NCBI GenBank assembly: GCA_025829515.1 | Contig: GCA_025829515.1_4865.1 | Origin: a phage | DNA length: 64,000 nucleotides | Reading direction: 5' to 3' (one strand) | Shown here: positions 1 through 15,949 of the stretch, piece by piece | Position numbering within the stretch: the stretch's first letter is position 1 | How the letters are laid out: each line of letters begins with the position of its first letter | Notes under the pieces: model-generated | Told to the model about the DNA's origin: nothing | Seen by the model: only the letters and a program-made list of their open reading frames with translations | The model's database searches: none | Position numbers and translations under genes: made by a program

Positions 1-40
1 TGCCGAGACCACTAAGAATGGTCGTAACACGGTAATTACG

Positions 41-1330
41 TTGGTAGGTAAACCCGGTAAAGGTTTCTCTGGGGAGTGCACGGTTTATTACGACCGTTTA
101 ACATTATCAGATCTATTTAAAATAGCTCCGCGCGTCTACGTACCACAAACGGCCAAGACCGTGCGGGATCTTCTCCCAGCTCTACGTGATTTATACGGTG
201 TTTGGTTATCTGATAGCAGTGTACAGTCGGTAGACGCGCCTATCAAATCGCTGGCAACGCCAACACGTATTAATTTAACCGCGTATAATAGCGTATGCTA
301 TCGCGGCTATATCCCGGTCGATTATTTGAATGAAGCCGTAGGGTACTATCCAGATTCTGGGCCAGGCAATAAATATTTGTTGGCAGGGGACAGCACAAAC
401 GGATACTTCGGTCACGTTTCTCAGCAAGAGTTATTTACCTTTGCTGAACTAAACAACCTAATTCGTCCTGATGTTTCCCCAACGAAAATGACTTTCGAGT
501 GGTTGAAATTTTTCAAGGACGGTAAGATTGTTTATCTACCGACTACCGGAACGTTAACAGCAACCTGGACGGCCCTTTATCAAGCGGGTGCCATTTTCGG
601 TACAGGTGACGCTGGTCCGTATCCAGACGGTATCGAACCTGTTGACCAGGCTTTGATTGTCACGAAAACTGAGAATAACAAGACGCATTATTACCGTGTC
701 TCCGTTCCGGTTAGCCCTGATTTATCAAAGGCCACGCCGTTGTGGCTTATTTCACAACTCGGTGACGGTTCTACGGGTGGCGACTGGGCAAATGACACCA
801 CGTTAACCAGAACCACCGTCTTCTTCACGCAACAACTGTTAACCGGGGGTAACCCTGTTAAAGTACAACGTTGCAATATGCGCGGTGGCTCAGTTGAATG
901 GGTAACCCTTGCAGATACCACTTACTGGTGGCCTGTTTTAGAGGAAATCAATAAGGACGACATCGTCTTACCTTTAGCTGATGTGGAAGGGGATGTTGTG
1001 TGGCGCGTTAGGGTTATTCCTAATGTACCATCACCACAACCTGATAGCATTCGCCCTCTTGCAGTCGAGGTTGCGACAACAGATGCGCCGAGACCTCTAG
1101 CAACAACTGCGGAACAGGTGGAAGAACCTATCAGCCCGATTGTGGTGGGTGAACCAAACGTCGATACTGCGCTGCCGTTATCGACAGTGTCGAAGAGCGT
1201 AGGTACAGTTAGGCCGATGGTTGTACTTGAACCACACGTCGACGCACCGCGTCCACTACCGCCTACTCAGGCAGAACCTCCACTTAAAACAGATTTAGCA
1301 ACCGCGAACGGTGAGTTGAACGGCTTCTAA
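41..1330 (+). CDS. putative tail fiber / receptor-binding protein, paralog family member (429 aa)
   Basis: ORF track; TTG start (all three frames hit stops within the first 35 nt, so nothing reads in from upstream). Shares GECT[IV]YYD[RK]L block with ORFs 3257 and 3563 and an AELNxLI...F[KE]...K[IG]...[LI]P block with ORF 2343. Pro-rich C-terminal repeats (VDAPRPL); terminal KTDLxTxNGELxGF motif shared with ORF 9967. Confidence 0.5.
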   Translation: MVGKPGKGFSGECTVYYDRLTLSDLFKIAPRVYVPQTAKTVRDLLPALRDLYGVWLSDSSVQSVDAPIKSLATPTRINLTAYNSVCYRGYIPVDYLNEAVGYYPDSGPGNKYLLAGDSTNGYFGHVSQQELFTFAELNNLIRPDVSPTKMTFEWLKFFKDGKIVYLPTTGTLTATWTALYQAGAIFGTGDAGPYPDGIEPVDQALIVTKTENNKTHYYRVSVPVSPDLSKATPLWLISQLGDGSTGGDWANDTTLTRTTVFFTQQLLTGGNPVKVQRCNMRGGSVEWVTLADTTYWWPVLEEINKDDIVLPLADVEGDVVWRVRVIPNVPSPQPDSIRPLAVEVATTDAPRPLATTAEQVEEPISPIVVGEPNVDTALPLSTVSKSVGTVRPMVVLEPHVDAPRPLPPTQAEPPLKTDLATANGELNGF

Positions 1331-1340
1331 GGAGTAACAG

Positions 1341-2339
1341 ATGGCTTTCACACTACGCTGGAAAAATGAAAATCCGGCAGGTTCAATTGTTAACATTTAT
1401 CGGGGCACGGCTAAAATAAATACAGCCGCATTACCAGCCCCTATTGCAACTTTAAGTAATGGCGAAACGGAATGGACGGACGAAACCGTTATTCTTAACA
1501 CCCGTTACTGGTATCTTTTAACAGTAACTGTTAACGGTCGTACCGTAGGTAGTCCACAAAAATCCATTGTCATTAAAAACCGTCGTGGTGTGGGTGGCGT
1601 CGACCAGATTAACTATTCCGATACTGACGACTTGGCGTTTCTGGGGCAGTTGCCGTTCGAAGAACAGATGACCTATGACGCGTTGCCTGCAGGCTTTCGT
1701 GCATTAACAGGGATATCGGGCACGGGCACGCTAATCATGAACAAGTTTTATCGTCATGGTAAAGTTTACTACATGATGAACAGCGGCGGACGATTTAACT
1801 CTACACTTTACTCGTGGAATGACATTTATAACGCGGGGCTTGTGTACGGTGTTGATGGATTTGGTCCTGATAACGGACGTGGGGATTTGGCAGGTGTTGA
1901 CCAGAGTGGGTTGTTTGAATGGCAAGGCGACACCTATCGGATGCGATTGCTGCGCGGTTTAACCGACGGGGACGAACCGACAGTAATGACATTGGATGAA
2001 TCGTTGCGAAACGCAGACCATGATGACTTGGAATATGGTCGCTGCGAATATAACGATTTTGTTTATCCGTTCGGAGAATGTATCCCTAACAAACAAATGC
2101 TCCCTAACTGGACTAATATTAGTCCAGCGTCCATTTATGGGAGCGGTAGCGCTTACCAAGGCAAAGGTTTCTTGTGCCAAGAACGTGATCCTGAATCGGG
2201 ATTAGTTCTGGTTCGCGGGTCTGCGCCTATCGATTCAAGCATAACCAATACGTCGAAACGTAACCTCTCCCAAGTTACGTTAGTTGATAGTGCTGAGAAG
2301 GTCGGTTTGTACGCATTCGTTATCGAGTTAGTGGAGTAA
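1341..2339 (+). CDS. putative tail fiber / adhesin paralog with Ig/FN3-like N-terminal module (332 aa)
   Basis: ATG with AAGGAG RBS. N-terminus (LRWKNEN...IVNIYRG...WYLLTVTVNG) is paralogous to ORF 2343 (LNWKQQ...IEIYRY...YQYRIVAVKG), and both end in IELV; beta-sandwich-like pattern is an inference. Confidence 0.5.
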   Translation: MAFTLRWKNENPAGSIVNIYRGTAKINTAALPAPIATLSNGETEWTDETVILNTRYWYLLTVTVNGRTVGSPQKSIVIKNRRGVGGVDQINYSDTDDLAFLGQLPFEEQMTYDALPAGFRALTGISGTGTLIMNKFYRHGKVYYMMNSGGRFNSTLYSWNDIYNAGLVYGVDGFGPDNGRGDLAGVDQSGLFEWQGDTYRMRLLRGLTDGDEPTVMTLDESLRNADHDDLEYGRCEYNDFVYPFGECIPNKQMLPNWTNISPASIYGSGSAYQGKGFLCQERDPESGLVLVRGSAPIDSSITNTSKRNLSQVTLVDSAEKVGLYAFVIELVE

Positions 2340-2342
2340 AAC

Positions 2343-3245
2343 ATGTCGATTATCTTAAACTGGAAACAACAGTCAGGTCAGACTTTAGATTCCATTGAAA
2401 TCTATCGTTACGACAACCCTAGACAAAGTGTTAACCCAGTAGCACCGGGGGAACCCATTGTAACACTACCAGGTAACACAACGACGTACGAGGACAAGAC
2501 CACCGAAGCGTATAAAACGTATCAATATCGCATCGTGGCGGTAAAGGGCACTGAAAAGGTTATGGGGCTGCCGATTGTACAGGGCGACTTTCCAATGACA
2601 GGGCCCGGCCCACAGGAACTTATTCGTGGCGATTGGCATCGTGGCTACTTTGGCACACTGACAAACAAAGAATTTATTCTTAACCATGCCGAGCTGAATG
2701 GTTTAATTGGCTTTAATGCCTGGAACCAAGCTCCAACATTGTTCCATAAATTCGTTTTCAAAGGACGCATTCTGTTCATTCCTGACACGGTGACCCGTTT
2801 AGGGACGTCGTGGGAAGAACAATACCGGCAAGGTCTGGCCTGGGGAACAGATGACTACGGTTTCCCGCCAGGGGGCGTCACTACCACTAACCAGCGTCGG
2901 ACATTTAATAAAGACGGTTACGAGTATGTGGTACGCTTGCCTCGACTCGGAGACTACAGTTATGGGCACAGCACCTACCTAAGCAGCGGTGGTTATTTTC
3001 AAGACGGCGAGTGGCACAACACGTTCGCAAGCTTGTTCCGGTACGCGGGCGTCGTAAGACGTTTTGGCGACTTACCGATGCGCTCCGGCGGTAGTCCAAC
3101 CGATTCAAGCGCAACATTGTTTGCCAACGGTCGTGACATCTACAACGCCTGGTACTATCGCAGCAACTCACCAGACTCACCATCGTATACCTATTCGACC
3201 GATAGCGCGTCGGTAGTCCACGTTATCGAATTGGTTCTTAGCTAA
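2343..3245 (+). CDS. putative tail fiber / adhesin paralog with Ig/FN3-like N-terminal module (300 aa)
   Basis: ATG 3 nt after the previous stop, GGAG RBS. Paralog of ORF 1341; central block shared with ORF 41. Confidence 0.5.
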   Translation: MSIILNWKQQSGQTLDSIEIYRYDNPRQSVNPVAPGEPIVTLPGNTTTYEDKTTEAYKTYQYRIVAVKGTEKVMGLPIVQGDFPMTGPGPQELIRGDWHRGYFGTLTNKEFILNHAELNGLIGFNAWNQAPTLFHKFVFKGRILFIPDTVTRLGTSWEEQYRQGLAWGTDDYGFPPGGVTTTNQRRTFNKDGYEYVVRLPRLGDYSYGHSTYLSSGGYFQDGEWHNTFASLFRYAGVVRRFGDLPMRSGGSPTDSSATLFANGRDIYNAWYYRSNSPDSPSYTYSTDSASVVHVIELVLS

Positions 3246-3256
3246 CAGGAGCTAAT

Positions 3257-3553
3257 ATGGGGTTTTACTCATCCACTGCACTTGAGCTGTTGTGTCGGCT
3301 CATTCAGCGGGATAATCCCCAACACGCAGGTCGAATCAGCGCAGATTCAATTGGGGAGTGTACGATCTATTACGATAAGTCGTTAAGCAGTAACACAGTG
3401 GCCGATGTTACCACCGCATCCAACTCGTTCGCTAATAAAGCGTACGGCCGCGCGGTTATCCAAACTGACGTCGAAGCAGCTGGAGTTAAAGGGATAGCGT
3501 ACTTCACCATAACAGCTAAAAATAGGCCCCGAAGGGCCTATTTTCTTTTTTAG
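3257..3553 (+). CDS. short N-terminal-module paralog of the receptor-binding family (98 aa), possibly a truncated remnant
   Basis: ATG with AGGAG RBS. Contains the RDNPQ and GECTIYYD motifs found at the N-termini of ORFs 3563 and 41. Its last codons overlap a strong terminator hairpin. Confidence 0.35.
   Translation: MGFYSSTALELLCRLIQRDNPQHAGRISADSIGECTIYYDKSLSSNTVADVTTASNSFANKAYGRAVIQTDVEAAGVKGIAYFTITAKNRPRRAYFLF
3523..3551 (+). terminator. rho-independent terminator (stem TAGGCCC / GGGCCTA, T-run)
   Basis: 7-bp GC-rich stem, CGAA loop, followed by TTTTCTTTTTT. Confidence 0.6.
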
Positions 3554-3562
3554 GACGTTGCA

Positions 3563-4882
3563 ATGATCAACTATAACAAACCTGTCATGCAGCTGGTTTG
3601 GGATCAGATTAATCGTGATAACCCGCAGCTCAAGAAACCACTCAACGCAACCAACGTGGCGTTATTACAAGGTCCTTTAACCAATGCCTTGCGCGATGGC
3701 CGCAACAGCCGTATAGTGGTAAACGGATTACAGGGTGGCGGTTACAGCGGTAAGATGGACATCTACTACGACCGCTTAAACCTTTCGCAGTATTTTAAAG
3801 GCGTCAGCGTACCGGTTAAAGTACCTTATCGGGCGACGTCCTACCGCGACATCATCGACCGGATTTCCGCAGCTTGTGGGCTGGTGCTTACTGCTGACGA
3901 TTTAACGTATCCTGACAGCCAGTTTGCAATGATCACTGTGGCAACGGGCGATCGGACGGTGGCGATTAAATCGGATAACCCCGCATTCACGGGTCACATT
4001 CCTATTAGCTTTATTCGTGAAGAGCCCAGCTTTGCCGACTTGTACCACACCACCGAAACCGGAGCTTGGGAACCCATGGATGTTTACAGCACGGTCTATC
4101 GACTCGACTGGAGCATGTACACCCAACAGATAATCAATATTCCAATGGGTACCCCGCTGCGACTAAACAGTAACTCGTACATGACCCAGTTCATCGCGGC
4201 GCTGTCGGCATGGTCGGGCATCCCGTTCACTATCGGTAATGCTGCTACCGATAACCCGTATGACCTCTATGGGTATGTCGCTACACGCAATAACAACCCA
4301 GGCTTAGACCCTGATATGCGTGGGGAGTACAATTACTGCGTGAAGTTGACGCCACCTGAGGATATGGGTAATCTCCGTCGTCCGTTCTTCTTGCACTTTG
4401 GTCCGAAAAATAACGTGGCCTATTTGGCGCAGGAAAAGGACGTCGAACGTTATGCGCGTTACATGAGGTTCCGGGAAACCAGCTCAAATTCGATGAGCGT
4501 CACGTTGTATCAAAACGAGTACGTGTTGACTCGGGCAGAATCGCCTGAAACTGCGGATGATTTAACGGGTTCCCCGTATGGCACTCGATACTGTACCGGG
4601 AGTATTCGACGGCTGATGCAACACGCGTTTCCGACCGAAGAGATGTTCCAAGAAAGTATTGCTAACCGACGTCGGGTACTGTACCACACTGCTTACACCA
4701 CCACGACATCAGCTATTACTTACCAGGGACTATACCGTAACGGATACCAATCCAAACAAATGACGAGCCTCTACTCGAATTACTGTAACTATTTCATCTA
4801 TTACGACCCAAGCAAAGGCGGCTATATGGTCTACAGTCCATATAGCAAAACCGCCCCGGTCCCTTGGTATCCAGCGCTATAG
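3563..4882 (+). CDS. putative tail fiber / receptor-binding protein (439 aa)
   Basis: ATG with RBS. N-terminal RDNPQ...YYDRLNLSQYF module; C-terminal YYDPSKGGYMVYSPYSKTAPVPW module shared with ORF 4897. Confidence 0.5.
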   Translation: MINYNKPVMQLVWDQINRDNPQLKKPLNATNVALLQGPLTNALRDGRNSRIVVNGLQGGGYSGKMDIYYDRLNLSQYFKGVSVPVKVPYRATSYRDIIDRISAACGLVLTADDLTYPDSQFAMITVATGDRTVAIKSDNPAFTGHIPISFIREEPSFADLYHTTETGAWEPMDVYSTVYRLDWSMYTQQIINIPMGTPLRLNSNSYMTQFIAALSAWSGIPFTIGNAATDNPYDLYGYVATRNNNPGLDPDMRGEYNYCVKLTPPEDMGNLRRPFFLHFGPKNNVAYLAQEKDVERYARYMRFRETSSNSMSVTLYQNEYVLTRAESPETADDLTGSPYGTRYCTGSIRRLMQHAFPTEEMFQESIANRRRVLYHTAYTTTTSAITYQGLYRNGYQSKQMTSLYSNYCNYFIYYDPSKGGYMVYSPYSKTAPVPWYPAL

Positions 4883-4896
4883 ACTAAGGTGTCACC

Positions 4897-7074
4897 ATGT
4901 CCTACACTCCTGATTTAGTGGCGACCGTGATTCGGTCGCTCAACCGTAAAAACGCGGTCGCCAAAGCAGTAGACCCCGCTAACGTACGCCTGGTGTCCGT
5001 GGCGCATCGTGACGAAAAAACCCTAGACGTCACACTGACAGGGGGTCCGGGGTATTCAAGTTACGGTCAAATTACGGCCCAAGTCACGAAGCAAAATATT
5101 GCTGATTATTTCGCCAAGGTTAAGTTGGATGCCATTCCCACTTGTGCGTCCATCCACGAACTGTTGCCGCATTTAGACACTCTACTAGGGATTACCTTTT
5201 TAACTGACGACTTTGAAGACCTGCCTATCACTTGGACAAACAATGCTGCGTGTATCACGTTCCAGGCGAAACAGACAAGTCTTATCTGGTACGGCAGCCA
5301 AACGCTAGATGTGATAAACGGTGACGTGGATATCAACACCGTCTACACTGTTACCAACATCATTCTCACGCTAAAGGCTGCGAATAAACAGCAGTGGATT
5401 AACTTCTACTCTAATGCAACCAAACGGATCGTGGATCTTGATAAAGTCGATGTCAGCTCCCCGATGTCCCCGGAGGATATAGGCCAAACCTCTGCGTATA
5501 ACAGCGTCGTAGCTTTGACCGCTAGACCGGGGAGCGGGATGTTTGGAACGAAGTATGTGTTCTTTTCACGTAACAAACTCGAGACATATGCAGGCAAAAC
5601 CACATACGTCCCGGATGATTTCACCGGTAGCCTGCACGATGCTCTGGCCATCGAGACACTCGGCATTCGGAGTGTTTTTGATGTAAACGAAATTGCTCCT
5701 GTAGAGAACCTGGCAGGCGAGTGGCCGAGACAAGTGCAATTGGCACCCGTAGAGGGTTCGTACAAAGTCATGGGCAGTGCCACGTTGAATGTGGCACGCT
5801 ATCAAGATAACGAGCAAACCCTTAACCTGAACTACACAACTACGTCGCAACTTTCGGACAGCTACTGGGCCACAACGTTGACCAACCATGCGGCGTGCGG
5901 GCGTTTGTTTGTTAACGTGACCGTAGATGCGGGGGCTTTCGTTTATCGCGACAGCAACCTGAAACCGACGTTCGTTATCGACGAATTGCCGCAAATTGGC
6001 GAGGTGGTTTGGAACTTCGTTAACCGGGGAACCATTCTTGGTCGTGGTGGTTCGGGTATGGTCTACTCTATGCCTGCGAACACATCAGCGGACGGAGCTG
6101 ACGCAATCCACATTACCGATGCCTTCCGCGGCAAAGTCACCATCGAAAACTACGGCACCATCGCCGGAGGTGGGGGCGGGGGCGACTACTATGCGTTTAG
6201 CACCACCAAGATCGGTGGAGCTGGTGGTGCGCCACTCGGGACAGGCGCGGTGGTGCCCAGCGGCACCAATAACCGTAACGGCTTAGCTGGGTCCCGTGAC
6301 AAAGGCGGTGCTACTCAGTTAGTCGTCGCACAATTTACCGGCTACCAGAGTCGCTACTATGGCGGTCCGGGTGGGGATTGGGGCCAGCCGGGACGATATA
6401 CAGCGTTCGAGCAATGGAACACCCCGGCTACCGGCTCGCCGATCTATGTCTACGGTCGTGAAGACGGGATGTCATGGACTCGCCCTGGGATGGCAGGCGA
6501 AGCCGTCGGTGGGAATAAAAGTATCGTCAACTGGGTATCCGTCGGAACGGTGAAACCGAATGTCACCAACGAGTACCAAGAGTTCCTCGACTACCTCGCA
6601 GATTTAGATGCCAACCGATTGGCCAGTGCGGATGGGATAGATAAAGTCACCGACCCAACCAAGCCTGTAGTTGTGGAGTTCTTAGGTACGATTATTTCAG
6701 GTACGCTGTTCCAAAAGCAAAACATACCCGGCGGTTTGGTGGGAACACCATACGGCGATGCTGTAGCCAACTTACCAGCCACCACATTGTTTGGTATCAT
6801 GGCACACTGTGTATCGGAGTTTGATATTGTGCACGACACTTGGCGTTACAACCGCGCGGTGATGTTCACGCTAAAACCCGCACCTACCGGGGCGATTAGC
6901 CTCGCTGTGGAACGCAACCGGGTGAAATCGGCTACCAGTAGTGCACCGGTGGAGAAGTTCTACGTCGATCGCTTCGTGTATTACGATGCGTATCTCGGTA
7001 AAATGATGGAATGTAATCCGTATACCAAATCTGCCCCTAAACCGTGGGTGCGGCCAACGATACCGTTATCGTAA
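4897..7074 (+). CDS. putative tail fiber protein with Gly-rich segment (725 aa)
   Basis: ATG with AAGGTG RBS. Gly-rich stretch (GGGGGGDYY...GGAGGAPLGTG); C-terminal YYDAYLGKMMECNPYTKSAPKPW module paralogous to the end of ORF 3563. Confidence 0.5.
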   Translation: MSYTPDLVATVIRSLNRKNAVAKAVDPANVRLVSVAHRDEKTLDVTLTGGPGYSSYGQITAQVTKQNIADYFAKVKLDAIPTCASIHELLPHLDTLLGITFLTDDFEDLPITWTNNAACITFQAKQTSLIWYGSQTLDVINGDVDINTVYTVTNIILTLKAANKQQWINFYSNATKRIVDLDKVDVSSPMSPEDIGQTSAYNSVVALTARPGSGMFGTKYVFFSRNKLETYAGKTTYVPDDFTGSLHDALAIETLGIRSVFDVNEIAPVENLAGEWPRQVQLAPVEGSYKVMGSATLNVARYQDNEQTLNLNYTTTSQLSDSYWATTLTNHAACGRLFVNVTVDAGAFVYRDSNLKPTFVIDELPQIGEVVWNFVNRGTILGRGGSGMVYSMPANTSADGADAIHITDAFRGKVTIENYGTIAGGGGGGDYYAFSTTKIGGAGGAPLGTGAVVPSGTNNRNGLAGSRDKGGATQLVVAQFTGYQSRYYGGPGGDWGQPGRYTAFEQWNTPATGSPIYVYGREDGMSWTRPGMAGEAVGGNKSIVNWVSVGTVKPNVTNEYQEFLDYLADLDANRLASADGIDKVTDPTKPVVVEFLGTIISGTLFQKQNIPGGLVGTPYGDAVANLPATTLFGIMAHCVSEFDIVHDTWRYNRAVMFTLKPAPTGAISLAVERNRVKSATSSAPVEKFYVDRFVYYDAYLGKMMECNPYTKSAPKPWVRPTIPLS

Positions 7075-7118
7075 TTTAACGAGGAACTTGACGGGTTTAA
7101 AGCCTGAAGATAATCCAT

Positions 7119-8058: not shown

Positions 8059-8700
8059 ATGGAAGCACTTAAGTATAAGTTGTTAGAGAAGCCGTGGTTT
8101 ATCCTCACGGATGATTTCCATTTCGAGTTTACGTTGCGCAGCCTCTATCGTGAACACGCCGGAATGGATGCGATGGTAGCATTAGCAGGTCTGCATCCGG
8201 ATACCCCGTTATGGGTAACGGTACCGAAAGGATTTGTGACGGACCTGGCAAGCATTCCAGAAGCGTTACGTCCTATCCTGCATCCGGATGGGCCTTGGGC
8301 TGCTGCCGCTTGTGTGCATGATTTGTTTTACCAGAAACGTTCATCGGTAGGCTTTTACCCTGACACTGTCGAAGGTAATCTATCTCGTGCATGTGACAAA
8401 ACATTCGCTGACCTGATGTTCTTACGTATCATGGAGGCATTAGGCGTTGACACCTTTATTCGTAAGTCCTTCTACCATGCCGTTCACGAGTTTGGTTGGC
8501 CGTCCTATGTAGACGATAACTCTAAGGTGGTTTATAGCCGGCCGGTAGAAAAGACGTTGTCCTATAATCGCAACTACCTGTTCTTTAGAACGTCGCGTAC
8601 GTTAGCGATTCCTGAACACGAACGTGTTGACATTACTAATGGGCAACCGGTAAACGTGCAGTATTTGAATATCAAACGTGCGTTCCTGACTACCCCTTAA
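8059..8700 (+). CDS. DUF1353-like phage protein (213 aa)
   Basis: VPKGFVTDLASIP...AAAACVHDLFY resembles the DUF1353 signature (VPxGFxTDGASIP...HD); GAGG RBS. Confidence 0.5.
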   Translation: MEALKYKLLEKPWFILTDDFHFEFTLRSLYREHAGMDAMVALAGLHPDTPLWVTVPKGFVTDLASIPEALRPILHPDGPWAAAACVHDLFYQKRSSVGFYPDTVEGNLSRACDKTFADLMFLRIMEALGVDTFIRKSFYHAVHEFGWPSYVDDNSKVVYSRPVEKTLSYNRNYLFFRTSRTLAIPEHERVDITNGQPVNVQYLNIKRAFLTTP

Positions 8701-9966: not shown

Positions 9967-10494
9967 ATGGCAGTCATCTCTGCAAAAGACCAACTCGTCG
10001 CGCTGTTTAATGCTGCAAACAGCGGACTGTCTAGTCCGTTAACTTCTGCTGACGTTACATTCGGCGCTGTTGCTGACTATTCACCAGCAGATTCTGGAGA
10101 CACCCGCAACTCCAAACTCACCATCACTGCCACCGCGGAATCCGCTAACTTTACTGGCGAGAAAGAGCTGCATTATACCCGCCTCGATTCATTGAACATC
10201 ATCGGTGCGAAAGCAGTTACCGCTGACCAGGCAGAATGGGATACCGATGAAGAAGTGCTTGCTTTTGTCAACGCAGATCTAATTGCCGCCGGTAAAACGG
10301 AAGATGCGTTTGCATTGTCTGAACTCACCATTTCACGCGAGGACGGCGACAGTGGTGAGAAAATCATCACTGTTATGGTGAAAGAAGGCCACATTAAATA
10401 CCAGCCTGCCAGCCTTGCAGTTTATACTGTAACGCAGCCAATCGTTAAAACTGACCTGAGCACCACCAACGGTGAACTGGACGGATTCGTTTAA
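9967..10494 (+). CDS. hypothetical protein, possible virion component (175 aa)
   Basis: AAGGAA RBS; C-terminal VKTDLSTTNGELDGFV is near-identical in pattern to the C-terminus of ORF 41. Confidence 0.5.
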   Translation: MAVISAKDQLVALFNAANSGLSSPLTSADVTFGAVADYSPADSGDTRNSKLTITATAESANFTGEKELHYTRLDSLNIIGAKAVTADQAEWDTDEEVLAFVNADLIAAGKTEDAFALSELTISREDGDSGEKIITVMVKEGHIKYQPASLAVYTVTQPIVKTDLSTTNGELDGFV

Positions 10495-11247: not shown

Positions 11248-11789
11248 TCGTCCTCCTCAATCAGGCCAAGTTCTAACAACAAACCGAAGTCCAGCATCTG
11301 GAAGTCCTGATCGAGGTTACCGGCCCACAACAGAGAAATGTTGTGTTGCTCTTCTTCTTCCAACTGCGGGAGCAGGTGTTCTTCGAAGATTTGACGCTCT
11401 GTGTAATAAGCGTCAACCGGGTTATTGGAGCGTAAGTTACGAATACGCATCCGCGGGAAAGACAAGCCCAAAGCCACTAAACTTTCAGGACTGGCTTCAT
11501 CAATAGAGTGACGTAGCAGTTCGATTTTGTGGCGTGGGTATGCAAGCAGTCGCTTCTCAAAGCCAGGGTTGCGCTTTTCGATTTCCGCGACAGACTCGTG
11601 TCCTTTCTCAACGCAGTAGACCGGGATCATCACGTTCAGCCCGTATTTAATCAACAGGCTTTGGATTTCATCAGTGAAGTCTTCCCCTGCCACAATTGCG
11701 TGCACATTGTACAGCTTGCTTTTGCGCAGGAAGCGATCGACCAAGTGCAGTTTACGCTTCGTAAAATTGTGAATCAGTATTGACTTCAT
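11223..11789 (-). CDS. hypothetical protein in rSAM module (about 189 aa from ATG 11789)
   Basis: Start chosen at the internal ATG with ACGGAG RBS; the track start at 11867 would overlap the rSAM gene by about 116 nt. Confidence 0.4.
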   Translation of the reverse strand: MKSILIHNFTKRKLHLVDRFLRKSKLYNVHAIVAGEDFTDEIQSLLIKYGLNVMIPVYCVEKGHESVAEIEKRNPGFEKRLLAYPRHKIELLRHSIDEASPESLVALGLSFPRMRIRNLRSNNPVDAYYTERQIFEEHLLPQLEEEEQHNISLLWAGNLDQDFQMLDFGLLLELGLIEEDECLLLTKA

Positions 11790-13080
11790 TCTGGGCTCCG
11801 TTTTGTAATTTTTCTGCTTCGGCACGTTGGCGTACACAACGTGAACAATAGCACATGGATTTATCATGCAAATCTGATGCGCGAGTCGTACCAGTTTTCT
11901 GATACCAATATTCCGCCGCCATCAGCTTCGCAGTAGTCCAACCACACTGACGACGCTCGGCGTGATACGCTTTACGGTCTTCCAGTGTACCTTCACCGTT
12001 TTCGTACGATGCTGCTGCGCAGCTACCGCAGCTGTGTTTCATCGGACACCCTAAACAGGTTTCTGGGTAGTTGGTGTACTGCGTTTGAATCTCTTCTAAC
12101 AGCTTACCGCCGTCCAGGCTCACAAACTCACGACCAACCAGTTCCGCTACAGCAGAGCGGGAAGTTACCGTGGACATGAAACGGTTACAACCGTAAATCT
12201 TGCGATCAAAGCCGAGACAGGTCATGTGCGTCAACGTACCGCAGTACGGTTTCAGGCGTTCTGGGTCGAGACGAACAGAGTCGTCATGTAAGAGTTTGTC
12301 ACGCCAATCCGGGTCCCAAGTTGCCATAAAGTTCAGGCCATCCGGGATGATGTGTGTAATCGTGTTACGCGGGTTGGTGTGCAGACCCTTCTCAATCCAG
12401 TAGTCCATCACGTCCATCATCTGGTTCGCGATATCCAACGCCATATGGCGCGGCAGGATATCTTCGTACGTTACGTTACCAGAGATGGTACCACCGCCGG
12501 ACATGTCAATTAACGATTTCATGCTGGCGGCATAGTGCGGCAATGTATCGATCGTAAACGTCGCCTTTACGCCCAGCTCAGCGATGCCAACACTCTTCAG
12601 ATAATTGTAACCGCGTACCGCAGCTTCGTACGACCCTTCACGCGTCGTGGTAAAGATACGATATTTGTCATGGACTTCAGGTAAACCATCGATGGAGACC
12701 CCAATAGACAGTTTGTCTTTCCAGCGCTCGATAATTTCTTTGTTCAGCGGACGGTCCAGAAGCGTACCGTTCGTGGAGATACTGAACATATACGGGCGAT
12801 TGTGTTCTGCGCATAACTTCTCTGCGGTTTCAAAGGCCGCCAAAAGAAGTTTAGGCTGCATGAACGGCTCACCACCGATGATATCGATGATGACTTCAAC
12901 GTTCGGGATATCTTTATCACGCTCGAAACAAGCGTGGATAAAATCAATCACGTCTGCTACTTTGTTGTTACGCGGATATTTACGCTCGTAGCAGTATTCG
13001 CAGTCCAGGTTACATGACAGGTTAGTCACAACCTGATACGTGCGTGGTGTGTACTGGATTTGCTGTTCGCTATTACTCAT
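11752..13080 (-). CDS. radical SAM enzyme with Cys-rich C-terminal SPASM-like domain (442 aa), putative peptide/protein maturase
   Basis: N-terminal CNLDCEYCY (CxxxCxxC radical-SAM cluster motif); C-terminal Cys cluster (CLGCPMKHSCGSCAA...CGW...CYCSRC) typical of SPASM auxiliary Fe-S domains (anSME / sacti- / ranthipeptide maturase type). Confidence 0.7.
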   Translation of the reverse strand: MSNSEQQIQYTPRTYQVVTNLSCNLDCEYCYERKYPRNNKVADVIDFIHACFERDKDIPNVEVIIDIIGGEPFMQPKLLLAAFETAEKLCAEHNRPYMFSISTNGTLLDRPLNKEIIERWKDKLSIGVSIDGLPEVHDKYRIFTTTREGSYEAAVRGYNYLKSVGIAELGVKATFTIDTLPHYAASMKSLIDMSGGGTISGNVTYEDILPRHMALDIANQMMDVMDYWIEKGLHTNPRNTITHIIPDGLNFMATWDPDWRDKLLHDDSVRLDPERLKPYCGTLTHMTCLGFDRKIYGCNRFMSTVTSRSAVAELVGREFVSLDGGKLLEEIQTQYTNYPETCLGCPMKHSCGSCAAASYENGEGTLEDRKAYHAERRQCGWTTAKLMAAEYWYQKTGTTRASDLHDKSMCYCSRCVRQRAEAEKLQNGAQNEVNTDSQFYEA

Positions 13081-15141: not shown

Positions 15142-15546
15142 TTAGGAGTTAGGACCTGAACAACCACCAGAGCACGCACCTGAGCAGTTTGCGGAGCAGG
15201 ATTTACCACAACCCCCAGAACAGCTGCCTGTGCACGTGCCGCTACAACCACCAGAGCACGAAGAGCTACAGCCCGTGCAGCTGCTGCTACAGCCTGATAC
15301 ACAGTTTGCCGAGCAAGTCGACCCACAACCACCTGTCGCGGACCCTGTGCAGCCGCCAGAGCAACTTGAGCAGCTAAAAGAGCATGTCCCACCACAGTCA
15401 TAGTGCGAACGGCCTTGACCTGCGAACAAGTCGGCGTTATTCGTAGCTTTATTGCGAATGTAGTTTTGCACATTCGTGGTGTTCTTTAAAGCGTTTGCAT
15501 CGATCGTGTTTAATCGGTTATTCAGTTCTTTTAATCCAATTGCCAT
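15142..15546 (-). CDS. Cys-rich precursor-like protein 2 (134 aa), (C-x-x-x)n Ser/Gly/Thr core
   Basis: ATG with AAGGGGG RBS. Leader-like N-terminal ~50 aa, then HYDCGGTCSFSCSS... with about 20 Cys, mostly one every fourth residue. Confidence 0.55.
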   Translation of the reverse strand: MAIGLKELNNRLNTIDANALKNTTNVQNYIRNKATNNADLFAGQGRSHYDCGGTCSFSCSSCSGGCTGSATGGCGSTCSANCVSGCSSSCTGCSSSCSGGCSGTCTGSCSGGCGKSCSANCSGACSGGCSGPNS

Positions 15547-15556
15547 TTAATCCCCC

Positions 15557-15949
15557 TTAGCGACCTGAACAGCCGCCGGAGCAGGCCCCGGAACAACTGG
15601 AAGAACATGAGCCACCGCAACCACCAGTGCAGTTACCGGTACAGCTACTACTGCAACCACCAGAACAACCAGAGCAACCAGAACAGTTACCGCCACACGT
15701 CGAAGAACAGCTACCGATGCAAGAAGCAGAACAGCTTCCTGAACAGCTCGAACAACCGTGAGAACAGCCATTCGAACACGTCCAAGAACATGTCCCGCCG
15801 CAATCTAGCTGTGCTTTCGTCCAACCCCCAAATCGGTCTGCCGCATTATGGGCTTTAGAGGCCACTTGCGCGTCGATGCGGGGGCCTGTCGCCATGTTAG
15901 CTTCGACTATCTGGACGCGGTTTCTGACGTCTTTAATAGATATCGCCAT
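15557..15949 (-). CDS. Cys-rich precursor-like protein 1 (130 aa), (C-x-x-x)n Ser/Gly/Thr core
   Basis: ATG with AAGGAAG RBS. Leader-like N-terminus (IKDVRNRVQIVEAN...), then QLDCGGTCSWTCSNGCSHGCSSCSGSC... with about 21 Cys. Confidence 0.55.
   Translation of the reverse strand: MAISIKDVRNRVQIVEANMATGPRIDAQVASKAHNAADRFGGWTKAQLDCGGTCSWTCSNGCSHGCSSCSGSCSASCIGSCSSTCGGNCSGCSGCSGGCSSSCTGNCTGGCGGSCSSSCSGACSGGCSGR

What the first reader, a model, noticed from the sequence alone, without database searches (positions are those of the whole stretch)
1270..1330. Shared C-terminal tail motif (KTDL-x-T-x-NGEL-x-GF) on two otherwise unrelated proteins
ORF 41 ends in LKTDLATANGELNGF and ORF 9967 (10440-10494) ends in VKTDLSTTNGELDGFV. 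A conserved C-terminal peptide on different proteins suggests a common docking, export or chaperone-recognition signal (for example attachment to the same virion site).
Basis: seen in the sequence. Interest (0 to 1): 0.45.

Follow-up and report, generated by a model that had tools for sequence, protein, structure and literature searches.

The report
Docking tail on jumbo-phage fibre proteins
The shared C-terminal peptide is real and strongly conserved, but it sits on two paralogous virion proteins of an SPN3US-like jumbo phage and is most likely the short tail by which these DUF7941 proteins hook onto each other's N-terminal domains to build chains.

Summary
ORF 2..1330 ends ...KTDLATANGELNGF* and ORF 9967..10494 ends ...KTDLSTTNGELDGFV*: 11 of 14 residues identical, against a background maximum of 7 in all but one other ORF pair.

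The window is a Salmonella SPN3US-type jumbo phage. The two proteins are SPN3US gp151 and gp160. They are not unrelated: both start with the chimallivirus-specific DUF7941 domain (Thomas-lab "Paralog family B"). SPN3US gp145 and gp148, just upstream of the window, carry the same tail.

Selection acts on the peptide, because 6 of the 11 shared residues use different codons. The tail is the most conserved segment in about 60 gp160 orthologues and 25 long paralogues (to 26% identity). In the long proteins it follows about 100 unalignable residues predicted disordered.

Profile alignment places the tail on the segment just after the DUF7941 N-terminal domain. A 2026 Goslar preprint predicts this "linker" docks on the next protomer's N-terminal domain. 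The gp160 model's fold matches PhiKZ gp127, a solved peripheral-baseplate protein.

Best reading: a head-to-tail docking peptide. Homology is well supported. Docking is inferred, not tested here. It is a new variant of a recently proposed mechanism.

The parts
1286..1327 (+). C-terminal tail motif KTDLATANGELNGF of the gp151 homologue (last 14 residues; stop at 1328-1330).
   Evidence: In 25 long paralogues L477, G479 and F480 are invariant. Motif entropy is 1.09 bits against 2.40 bits for the preceding linker.
974..1285 (+). Pro-rich, unalignable tether (gp151 residues about 363-466) between the folded body and the tail.
   Evidence: AF2 pLDDT is below 50 for 363-480. It is the least conserved segment of the family.
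335..967 (+). Central folded domain of the gp151 homologue (residues about 150-360), with a C-type-lectin-like fold. It is homologous to the core of the two downstream genes.
2..334 (+). DUF7941 N-terminal domain of the gp151 homologue. Its first 37 residues lie outside the window.
9967..10434 (+). DUF7941 N-terminal domain of the small protein (SPN3US gp160 homologue, residues 1-156).
10447..10488 (+). Tail motif KTDLSTTNGELDGF of the small protein, followed by one variable residue and the stop.
   Evidence: It is the most conserved segment in 61 orthologues (entropy 0.63 against 1.08-1.31 bits). hhalign places it on the post-domain linker of canonical DUF7941 proteins.
7075..7107 (+). Decayed tail copy FNEELDGFKA*, in frame directly after the TAA stop of ORF 4897..7074 (gp155 homologue).
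   Evidence: The Cronobacter phage CR5 homologue reads through to ...DLSKAQDTLDGFKK*. SPN3US itself has ELDGV, so the invariant F is lost.
3563..4069 (+). DUF7941 N-terminal domain of the gp154 homologue, which has no C-terminal tail. A possible acceptor.
   Evidence: Pfam PF25613 E 1.6e-26; local domain HMM.
4927..5358 (+). DUF7941 N-terminal domain of the gp155 homologue, which also has a T4 Gp38-adhesin-like domain. Its tail was lost through a stop codon.
   Evidence: Pfam PF25613 E 6e-23 and PF05268 E 5.8e-18.
1341..3245 (+). Two genes (gp152 and gp153 homologues) that follow every long tail-bearing gene. They have no DUF7941 domain. Their core is homologous to the gp151 central domain.
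   Evidence: The triplet order is conserved in Wellington, ChrisDB and CR5.

Best explanation
The tail ([K]-x-[DN]-L-x-x-x-N-G-E-L-[DN]-G-F, followed by 0-10 residues) is the inter-subunit docking segment of the DUF7941 family of chimallivirus virion proteins. In canonical DUF7941 proteins of about 275 aa this segment (consensus L...V....L.GL.YP) follows the N-terminal domain directly and precedes a C-terminal domain. In gp160 the protein simply ends after the segment. In gp145, gp148 and gp151 a lectin-like domain and a disordered tether of about 100 residues separate the N-terminal domain from it, so it ends up at the extreme C-terminus. Proposed mechanism (inferred): the tail inserts its conserved hydrophobic residues (L, L, F), with the acidic E and D between them, into a conserved site on the N-terminal domain of another DUF7941 protein. 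This gives head-to-tail chains. The abundant gp160 would be the chain-forming unit. The long proteins would be links that carry a ligand-binding domain and can still recruit a further subunit on a flexible leash. Proteins with an N-terminal domain but no tail (gp154, truncated gp155, PhiKZ gp126) would end a chain. Shown here: paralogy, purifying selection on the peptide, family-wide distribution, homology of the tail to the DUF7941 linker, and the fold match to PhiKZ gp127. Inferred: the docking itself, its partner, and its polarity.
Against: No interaction was computed or measured here. The docking model rests on AlphaFold predictions in an unreviewed preprint on a distant relative, and that text does not say which linker residues make contact. 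In the gp160 monomer the tail has pLDDT 81-87, so it may pack on its own domain in cis. hhalign against the single Goslar gp23 sequence aligned only the N-terminal domain, residues 4-78. SPN3US proteomics assigns Paralog family B to the head, because the proteins persist in purified tailless particles (PMC5694885, PMC10052503). That disagrees with a purely baseplate-anchored chain.
Confidence: 0.58

Rival explanations
1. The tail is an intramolecular element. It packs on the protein's own DUF7941 N-terminal domain and completes or caps the fold, with no role in assembly between subunits.
For: AF2 places the gp160 tail with pLDDT 81-87 in a monomer prediction. In canonical DUF7941 proteins the segment is contiguous with the N-terminal domain.
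Against: In the long protein AF2 does not dock the tail back onto the N-terminal domain in the same chain (pLDDT below 50). A disordered spacer of about 100 residues is an odd way to deliver a fold-completing strand. PhiKZ gp126 is a stable virion protein with an N-terminal domain and no tail. The SPN3US-clade gp155 lost its tail and the gene persists. Cis and trans binding to the same groove are not mutually exclusive.
Confidence: 0.17
2. The tail docks on a different common partner. Candidates are the two proteins encoded directly downstream of each long gene (gp152/gp153 type), the nearby DUF1353 'tail assembly chaperone' (window 8059..8700), or a capsid or baseplate site.
For: The gene order [long tail-bearing gene][two core-domain genes] is conserved in all four genomes, and the number of long tail-bearers equals the number of triplets: 3, 2, 4 and 1. 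The downstream proteins lack a DUF7941 anchor. A DUF1353 gene lies near the small gene in all four genomes. Family B proteins co-purify with tailless heads.
Against: gp160-type proteins carry the same tail without such downstream partners. The tail is homologous to the linker of canonical DUF7941 proteins, and purified Goslar gp22 forms filaments on its own. The downstream proteins share the gp151 core domain, which offers another way to associate.
Confidence: 0.17
3. The similarity reflects DNA-level events (recent duplication, gene conversion, or a recombination linker at cassette boundaries) or chance, not peptide function.
For: The region is a tandem paralogue array with clear rearrangements: a collapsed gene at 3257..3553, a relic tail at 7075..7107, and indels between close relatives.
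Against: Only 29/42 bases are identical, and 6 of 11 identical residues use different codons. The peptide is conserved in orthologues at 45% identity and paralogues at 26% identity while the flanks are unalignable. The untranslated relic is decaying; SPN3US has lost the invariant F. The match is far above background.
Confidence: 0.02

Closest known systems
Goslar gp23 and gp22 (DUF7941 'fiber cloud' proteins; bioRxiv 10.64898/2026.04.21.720040)
   Same: They share the Pfam family. gp23 has the gp160 architecture: about 180 aa, N-terminal domain plus linker, no C-terminal domain, very abundant in virions. Their linker segment aligns with the tail. The proposed mechanism is head-to-tail binding of the linker to the next N-terminal domain.
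   Different: Sequence similarity is low; only the N-terminal domain aligns by hhalign with the single gp23 sequence. The Goslar tail reads ...QLATVLADNVADGF... rather than KTDLSTTNGELDGF. The preprint describes a 'disordered linker' and, in the passages read, names no sequence motif. It does not describe proteins with the docking segment moved to the far C-terminus behind a lectin-like domain and a long tether. SPN3US is not mentioned.
PhiKZ gp127 and gp126 (outer peripheral baseplate, PDB 9XQD; PMC13250141)
   Different: Only the gp127 N-terminal domain (1-150) is modelled experimentally. The gp127-gp126 contact is an AF3 model fitted into density by the Goslar authors. Sequence identity is 12-13%.
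SPN3US 'Paralog family B' (Ali et al. 2017, PMC5694885; Weintraub et al. 2023, PMC10052503)
   Same: These are the same proteins, about 97% identical. gp160 is a high-abundance virion protein, and gp138-154 are members.
   Different: Those papers assign the family to the head and give no function. In the passages read they note neither the C-terminal motif nor the DUF7941 assignment.
Donor-strand or tail-peptide polymerisation in general (for example chaperone-usher pili); an analogy only, from general knowledge
   Same: A short terminal peptide of one subunit occupies a site on the next, giving polar linear polymers with terminator subunits.
   Different: There is no homology. The structure of the DUF7941 contact is unknown. 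Here the peptide is C-terminal and may sit on a long disordered leash.

Membership tests
Pfam DUF7941 (PF25613) | Match to the family HMM above the gathering score. | tested here: met
   gp160 homologue 43.3 bits and SPN3US gp151 79.3 bits, against a cutoff of 27. Also ORFs 3563..4882 and 4897..7074.
Pfam DUF7941 (PF25613) | N-terminal globular domain with the fold seen in PhiKZ gp127. | tested here: met
Pfam DUF7941 (PF25613) | Linker segment directly after the N-terminal domain. | tested here: met
   hhalign Prob 96.8%, E 2e-10, aligned through the tail. In the long proteins the segment is displaced to the C-terminus; its similarity to the gp160 tail shows as phrog_3589 positions 481-511, E 3e-6.
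Pfam DUF7941 (PF25613) | C-terminal globular domain ending ...LHYN (full-length members). | tested here: not met
   It is absent from gp160-type and gp145/148/151-type proteins. Goslar gp23 lacks it as well and is still counted in the family by the preprint.
DUF7941 head-to-tail oligomers (Goslar preprint model) | [quoted passage not shown] | not testable with these tools
   Only single-chain AF2 was available and no coordinates were returned. Indirect support only.
DUF7941 head-to-tail oligomers (Goslar preprint model) | Restriction to chimalliviruses (PhiKZ-like nucleus-forming jumbo phages). | tested here: met
   All named hits in the phage collection are SPN3US, Erwinia or Cronobacter jumbo phages of about 197-250 kb. 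Named protein hits are also jumbo phages, apart from a few deposited under bacterial names (Escherichia, Shewanella MAG) on contigs over 220 kb. The IMG/VR hits are on contigs of 107-245 kb. Most metagenomic hits are unnamed.
SPN3US Paralog family B | Identity with SPN3US_0160 and SPN3US_0151. | tested here: met
   96.6% aa identity to SPN3US_0160. The region is 97.5% identical in DNA. Locus tags were mapped.
Prohead-protease (gp245) substrates, considered for the ...NGE|L... site | Cleavage motif with A at P3 and E at P1 in all published SPN3US sites read (ATE, AQE, ASE, AVE, ALE). | tested here: not met
   The tail has N at P3 (N-G-E). The passages read describe the cleaved proteins as head and ejection proteins and do not list family B.

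The most novel reading that the evidence does not exclude
The tails form a docking code. The invariant NGEL(D/N)GF core gives general affinity for DUF7941 N-terminal domains. The variable first half (KTDLSTT, KTTLTSL, KITLGDT, KTDLATA) selects which paralogue is recruited next. About 13 clustered paralogues would then self-assemble into ordered, branched, heterogeneous fibres. Lectin-like and Gp38-like binding modules would be strung at defined positions on about 100-residue leashes, and loss of a tail (as in gp155) would re-wire the fibre. This would be a programmable polymer for host recognition without a known equivalent in other tailed phages. It could also reconcile the head versus baseplate localisation conflict if chains attach at both places or exist free.
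Probability: 0.15. Interest if true: 0.75.

Novelty: new variant of a known kind. Interest (0 to 1): 0.42.

Why it matters
DUF7941 proteins (Paralog family B) make up about 20 of the roughly 85 SPN3US virion proteins, and some are among the most abundant. Their location and role are still disputed: head according to SPN3US proteomics, a baseplate "fiber cloud" according to the Goslar preprint. A 14-residue, near-invariant peptide as the probable inter-subunit connector gives a small, mutable handle to test that model in a phage with an established amber-mutant genetic system. Possible experiments are tail deletion, point mutants of L171, G173 and F174, peptide competition, and pull-downs. The work also shows that the connector can sit far from the N-terminal domain behind a ligand-binding domain, which widens the set of proteins that may join such chains. 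It could also help engineer host range in therapeutic Salmonella and Erwinia jumbo phages.

Tried and rejected
- hhalign of the gp160 family against the single Goslar gp23 sequence aligned only residues 4-78. Homology of the two tails therefore rests on the profile comparison with canonical members and on MAFFT.
- A strict IMG/VR pattern scan (K..L...NGEL[DN]GF) gave only 8 loci. It is too strict to see the wider family, which the HMM search later showed.
- The phage distribution of gp152-type proteins is broad, including PhiPA3, Noxifer and Ralstonia phages. It does not separate the docking-on-DUF7941 model from the downstream-partner rival.
- Rejected: recent duplication or gene conversion and chance.
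- Rejected: a prohead-protease site, because P3 is N rather than A.
- Export and secretion signals have no supporting feature.
- SPN3US and SPFM papers were read for the motif; the passages read do not discuss it.

Full report
**What is in the sequence.**
- ORF 41..1330 is open from base 2 and its N-terminus is cut by the window edge. It ends ...AEPPLKTDLATANGELNGF*.
- ORF 9967..10494 ends ...QPIVKTDLSTTNGELDGFV*.
- The motifs are coded at 1286-1327 and 10447-10488, and 11 of 14 residues are identical.
- I compared the C-terminal ends of all 6,555 pairs of open frames of at least 100 aa in the window. The best 14-mer match is 7 or less everywhere except this pair (11) and an unrelated pair of tandem Cys-rich ORFs (12).
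- At DNA level only 29 of 42 bases agree, and 6 of the 11 identical residues use different codons. The similarity is therefore kept at the peptide level. It is not a recent duplication or conversion tract.

**Where the window comes from.** The first 12 kb are 97-99% identical to Salmonella jumbo phage SPN3US and its relatives (Seoulvirus). With the original locus tags:
- The long protein is SPN3US gp151 (480 aa).
- The small one is gp160 (175 aa).
- ORFs 1341..2339 and 2343..3245 are gp152 and gp153.
- ORFs 3563..4882 and 4897..7074 are gp154 and gp155.
- ORF 8059..8700 is gp157, a DUF1353 protein annotated as "tail assembly chaperone".

**The two proteins are paralogues, not unrelated proteins.**
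- Both start with Pfam DUF7941 (PF25613): 79.3 and 43.3 bits against a cutoff of 27. So do gp154 and gp155.
- Just upstream of the window SPN3US has two more long proteins with the same tail: gp145 (...DKTTLTSLNGELDGFK*) and gp148 (...SKITLGDTNGELDGFQ*).
- Each long gene is followed by two genes of the gp152/gp153 type, giving three tandem triplets.
- I searched ORFs of SPN3US, Erwinia phages Wellington and ChrisDB, Cronobacter phage CR5 and the window with a local HMM of the N-terminal domain. Every ORF carrying the motif has the domain, and no ORF without the domain has the motif.
- Long tail-bearers equal triplets in each genome: 3, 2, 4 and 1.
- These proteins are the "Paralog family B" of the Thomas laboratory. 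In that work gp160 is one of the most abundant virion proteins, at more than 300 copies (PMC5694885).

**Conservation.**
- Among 69 database relatives of gp160, nearly all full-length ones (down to 45% identity) keep KTDLSTTNGELDGF almost unchanged. It is followed by 0-10 variable residues.
- In a 61-sequence alignment the motif has mean column entropy 0.63 bits, against 1.08-1.31 bits for the rest.
- Long paralogues and orthologues down to 26% identity all end [K]x[DN]L..xNGEL[DN]GF with at most one further residue. L477, G479 and F480 are invariant.
- The roughly 100 preceding residues are Pro-rich and unalignable: entropy 2.40 bits against 1.09 for the motif.
- A profile search of 1.84 billion representative proteins returned 83 short (140-205 aa) relatives from separate 50%-identity clusters. 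Of these, 63 have [LM]xG[FLWYIM] within the last 22 residues, against 1.5% of control windows in the same proteins.
- The SPN3US motif is thus the local version of a family-wide C-terminal element with core (E/D)-L-(D/N)-G-(F/L).

**What the tail corresponds to.**
- I aligned the small proteins with canonical DUF7941 proteins of about 275 aa (SPN3US gp144, Wellington gp158-164, Goslar gp22/31/33/34). The tail falls on the segment directly after the N-terminal domain (consensus L...V....L.GL.YP), before the C-terminal domain that ends ...LHYN.
- hhalign confirms this: Prob 96.8%, E 2e-10, query 4-175 on template 6-166 of 294, running through the tail.
- gp160 is therefore a DUF7941 protein that stops right after this segment.
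- In gp145, gp148 and gp151 a folded central domain and a long spacer lie between the N-terminal domain and the segment.

**Structure predictions.**
- AF2 on the gp160 homologue gives mean pLDDT 92.4. The tail scores 81-87 and has little regular secondary structure, with one short helical turn.
- AF2 on the long protein folds residues 1-360 (pLDDT 80-94) and gives pLDDT below 50 for 363-480, tail included.

**Link to published work.**
- A bioRxiv preprint of April 2026 on phage Goslar (10.64898/2026.04.21.720040) describes DUF7941 as chimallivirus-specific. It divides the protein into N-terminal domain, disordered linker and C-terminal domain.
- It shows filaments of purified gp22 and fits a PhiKZ gp127-gp126 dimer into unexplained baseplate density. 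It proposes a "fiber cloud" for host recognition.
- Its gp23 (180 aa, about 2,140 copies per virion, N-terminal domain plus linker only) has the architecture of gp160 and ends ...KDQLATVLADNVADGFVKPTVSVVG.
- PhiKZ gp126, the bound partner, is an N-terminal domain with no tail.
- The PhiKZ atlas paper places one gp127 at the end of the gp139 band in each star lobe (PMC13250141).
- In the text I read, neither paper mentions SPN3US, a sequence motif, or proteins with the segment at the far C-terminus.

**Mechanism proposed.**
- The tail is the docking peptide that binds the N-terminal domain of another DUF7941 protein.
- gp160 would polymerise as the bulk unit.
- gp145, gp148 and gp151 would join through their N-terminal domain, present a lectin-like domain, and recruit a further subunit with the tail on a flexible leash.
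- Proteins lacking a tail would terminate chains.
- The polarity (N-terminal domain proximal) is inferred from PhiKZ gp127.
- Homology of the tail to the linker is well supported. The binding itself is inference.

**A natural tail loss.**
- Directly after the TAA stop of gp155 the same frame reads FNEELDGFKA* (7075-7107).
- The CR5 homologue has no stop there and ends ...DLSKAQDTLDGFKK*, so the stop falls inside the motif.
- In SPN3US the relic has already lost the invariant F (ELDGV).
- The tail is thus ancestral in this lineage as well. It decays once untranslated, which supports selection on the peptide where it is kept.

**Points against, and rivals.**
- No interaction was tested here.
- The confident tail in the gp160 monomer could mean cis packing.
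- SPN3US proteomics finds family B proteins at undiminished levels in purified tailless heads and calls them head proteins. This conflicts with baseplate-only anchoring and leaves the attachment site open. Free filaments that co-purify are one possibility.
- The conserved triplet order keeps the downstream gp152/gp153-type proteins in play as alternative partners, and the nearby DUF1353 protein as well. Their wide distribution does not decide the matter.
- DNA-level explanations and chance are excluded.

**Verdict.** The feature is a lineage-specific form, and in the long proteins a re-positioned form, of the DUF7941 inter-subunit linker proposed very recently. Interest is moderate: it gives a precise, testable handle on an abundant and poorly understood family of jumbo-phage virion proteins.

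Noticed in passing
window 7075-7107 (+): In frame right after the TAA stop of the gp155 homologue lies FNEELDGFKA*, a relic of the tail motif. The CR5 homologue reads through to ...DLSKAQDTLDGFKK*. SPN3US has ELDGV, so the relic is decaying.
   Followed up: yes
window 3257-3553 (+): A 98-aa ORF not annotated in SPN3US looks like a collapsed DUF7941 gene. The first ~33 residues of a gp151-type N-terminal domain are joined to the GECTIYYD strand and then to a gp144-type C-terminus (...FANKAYGRAVIQTDVEAAGVKGIAYF...). The window is about 139 bp longer than SPN3US across the first 12 kb.
   Followed up: partly
window 15142-15546 (-), 15557-15949 (-) and 11752-13080 (-): Two tandem ORFs (134 and 130 aa) have Cys/Gly/Ser-rich CxxxC-type repeats, with weak TIGR04114 hits below cutoff. 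Nearby is a radical SAM/SPASM gene whose best NCBIfam hit is the 'CXXX-repeat target family' peptide maturase (TIGR04115, E 3e-36, below the equivalog cutoff). This looks like a phage-borne RiPP-like cassette. SPN3US RefSeq appears to annotate a different frame (a 111-aa Ala/Val-rich ORF); this is inferred from matching ORF length and coordinate offset and was not checked directly.
   Followed up: partly
window 3563-4882 and 4897-7074 (+): gp154 and gp155 homologues share a different conserved C-terminal end (...YYD....M...PY.K.AP.PW..P; phrog_6409). gp155 also has a T4 Gp38-adhesin-like Gly-rich domain (PF05268, residues 373-553).
   Followed up: no
window 1341-2339 and 2343-3245 (+); L001 2531-4462 and 5985-7876: The gp152/gp153-type proteins all end ...(F/I/L)ELV(E/LP/LS). 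They share their core domain with the preceding long DUF7941 protein (phrog_1062 and phrog_3589 cross-hits). Three homologous cores from three adjacent genes suggest a possible heterotrimer.
   Followed up: no
L013 20001-21687 (Erwinia phage ChrisDB): Three small gp160-type genes lie in tandem (177, 184 and 172 aa), each ending in a tail variant: ...KTDLSTTNGELDGFTTS, ...EKIDISTLDGELNGFEYTPPVV and ...GKQQLMFATGELDGFN.
   Followed up: partly
and one search hit lists (SPFM phage records): Several SPFM phage proteins (for example P0060-P0069 and P0078-P0082) are scrambled mosaics of short segments of these genes. The corresponding records match in about 38 pieces, which points to assembly artefacts in those deposited genomes.
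   Followed up: no
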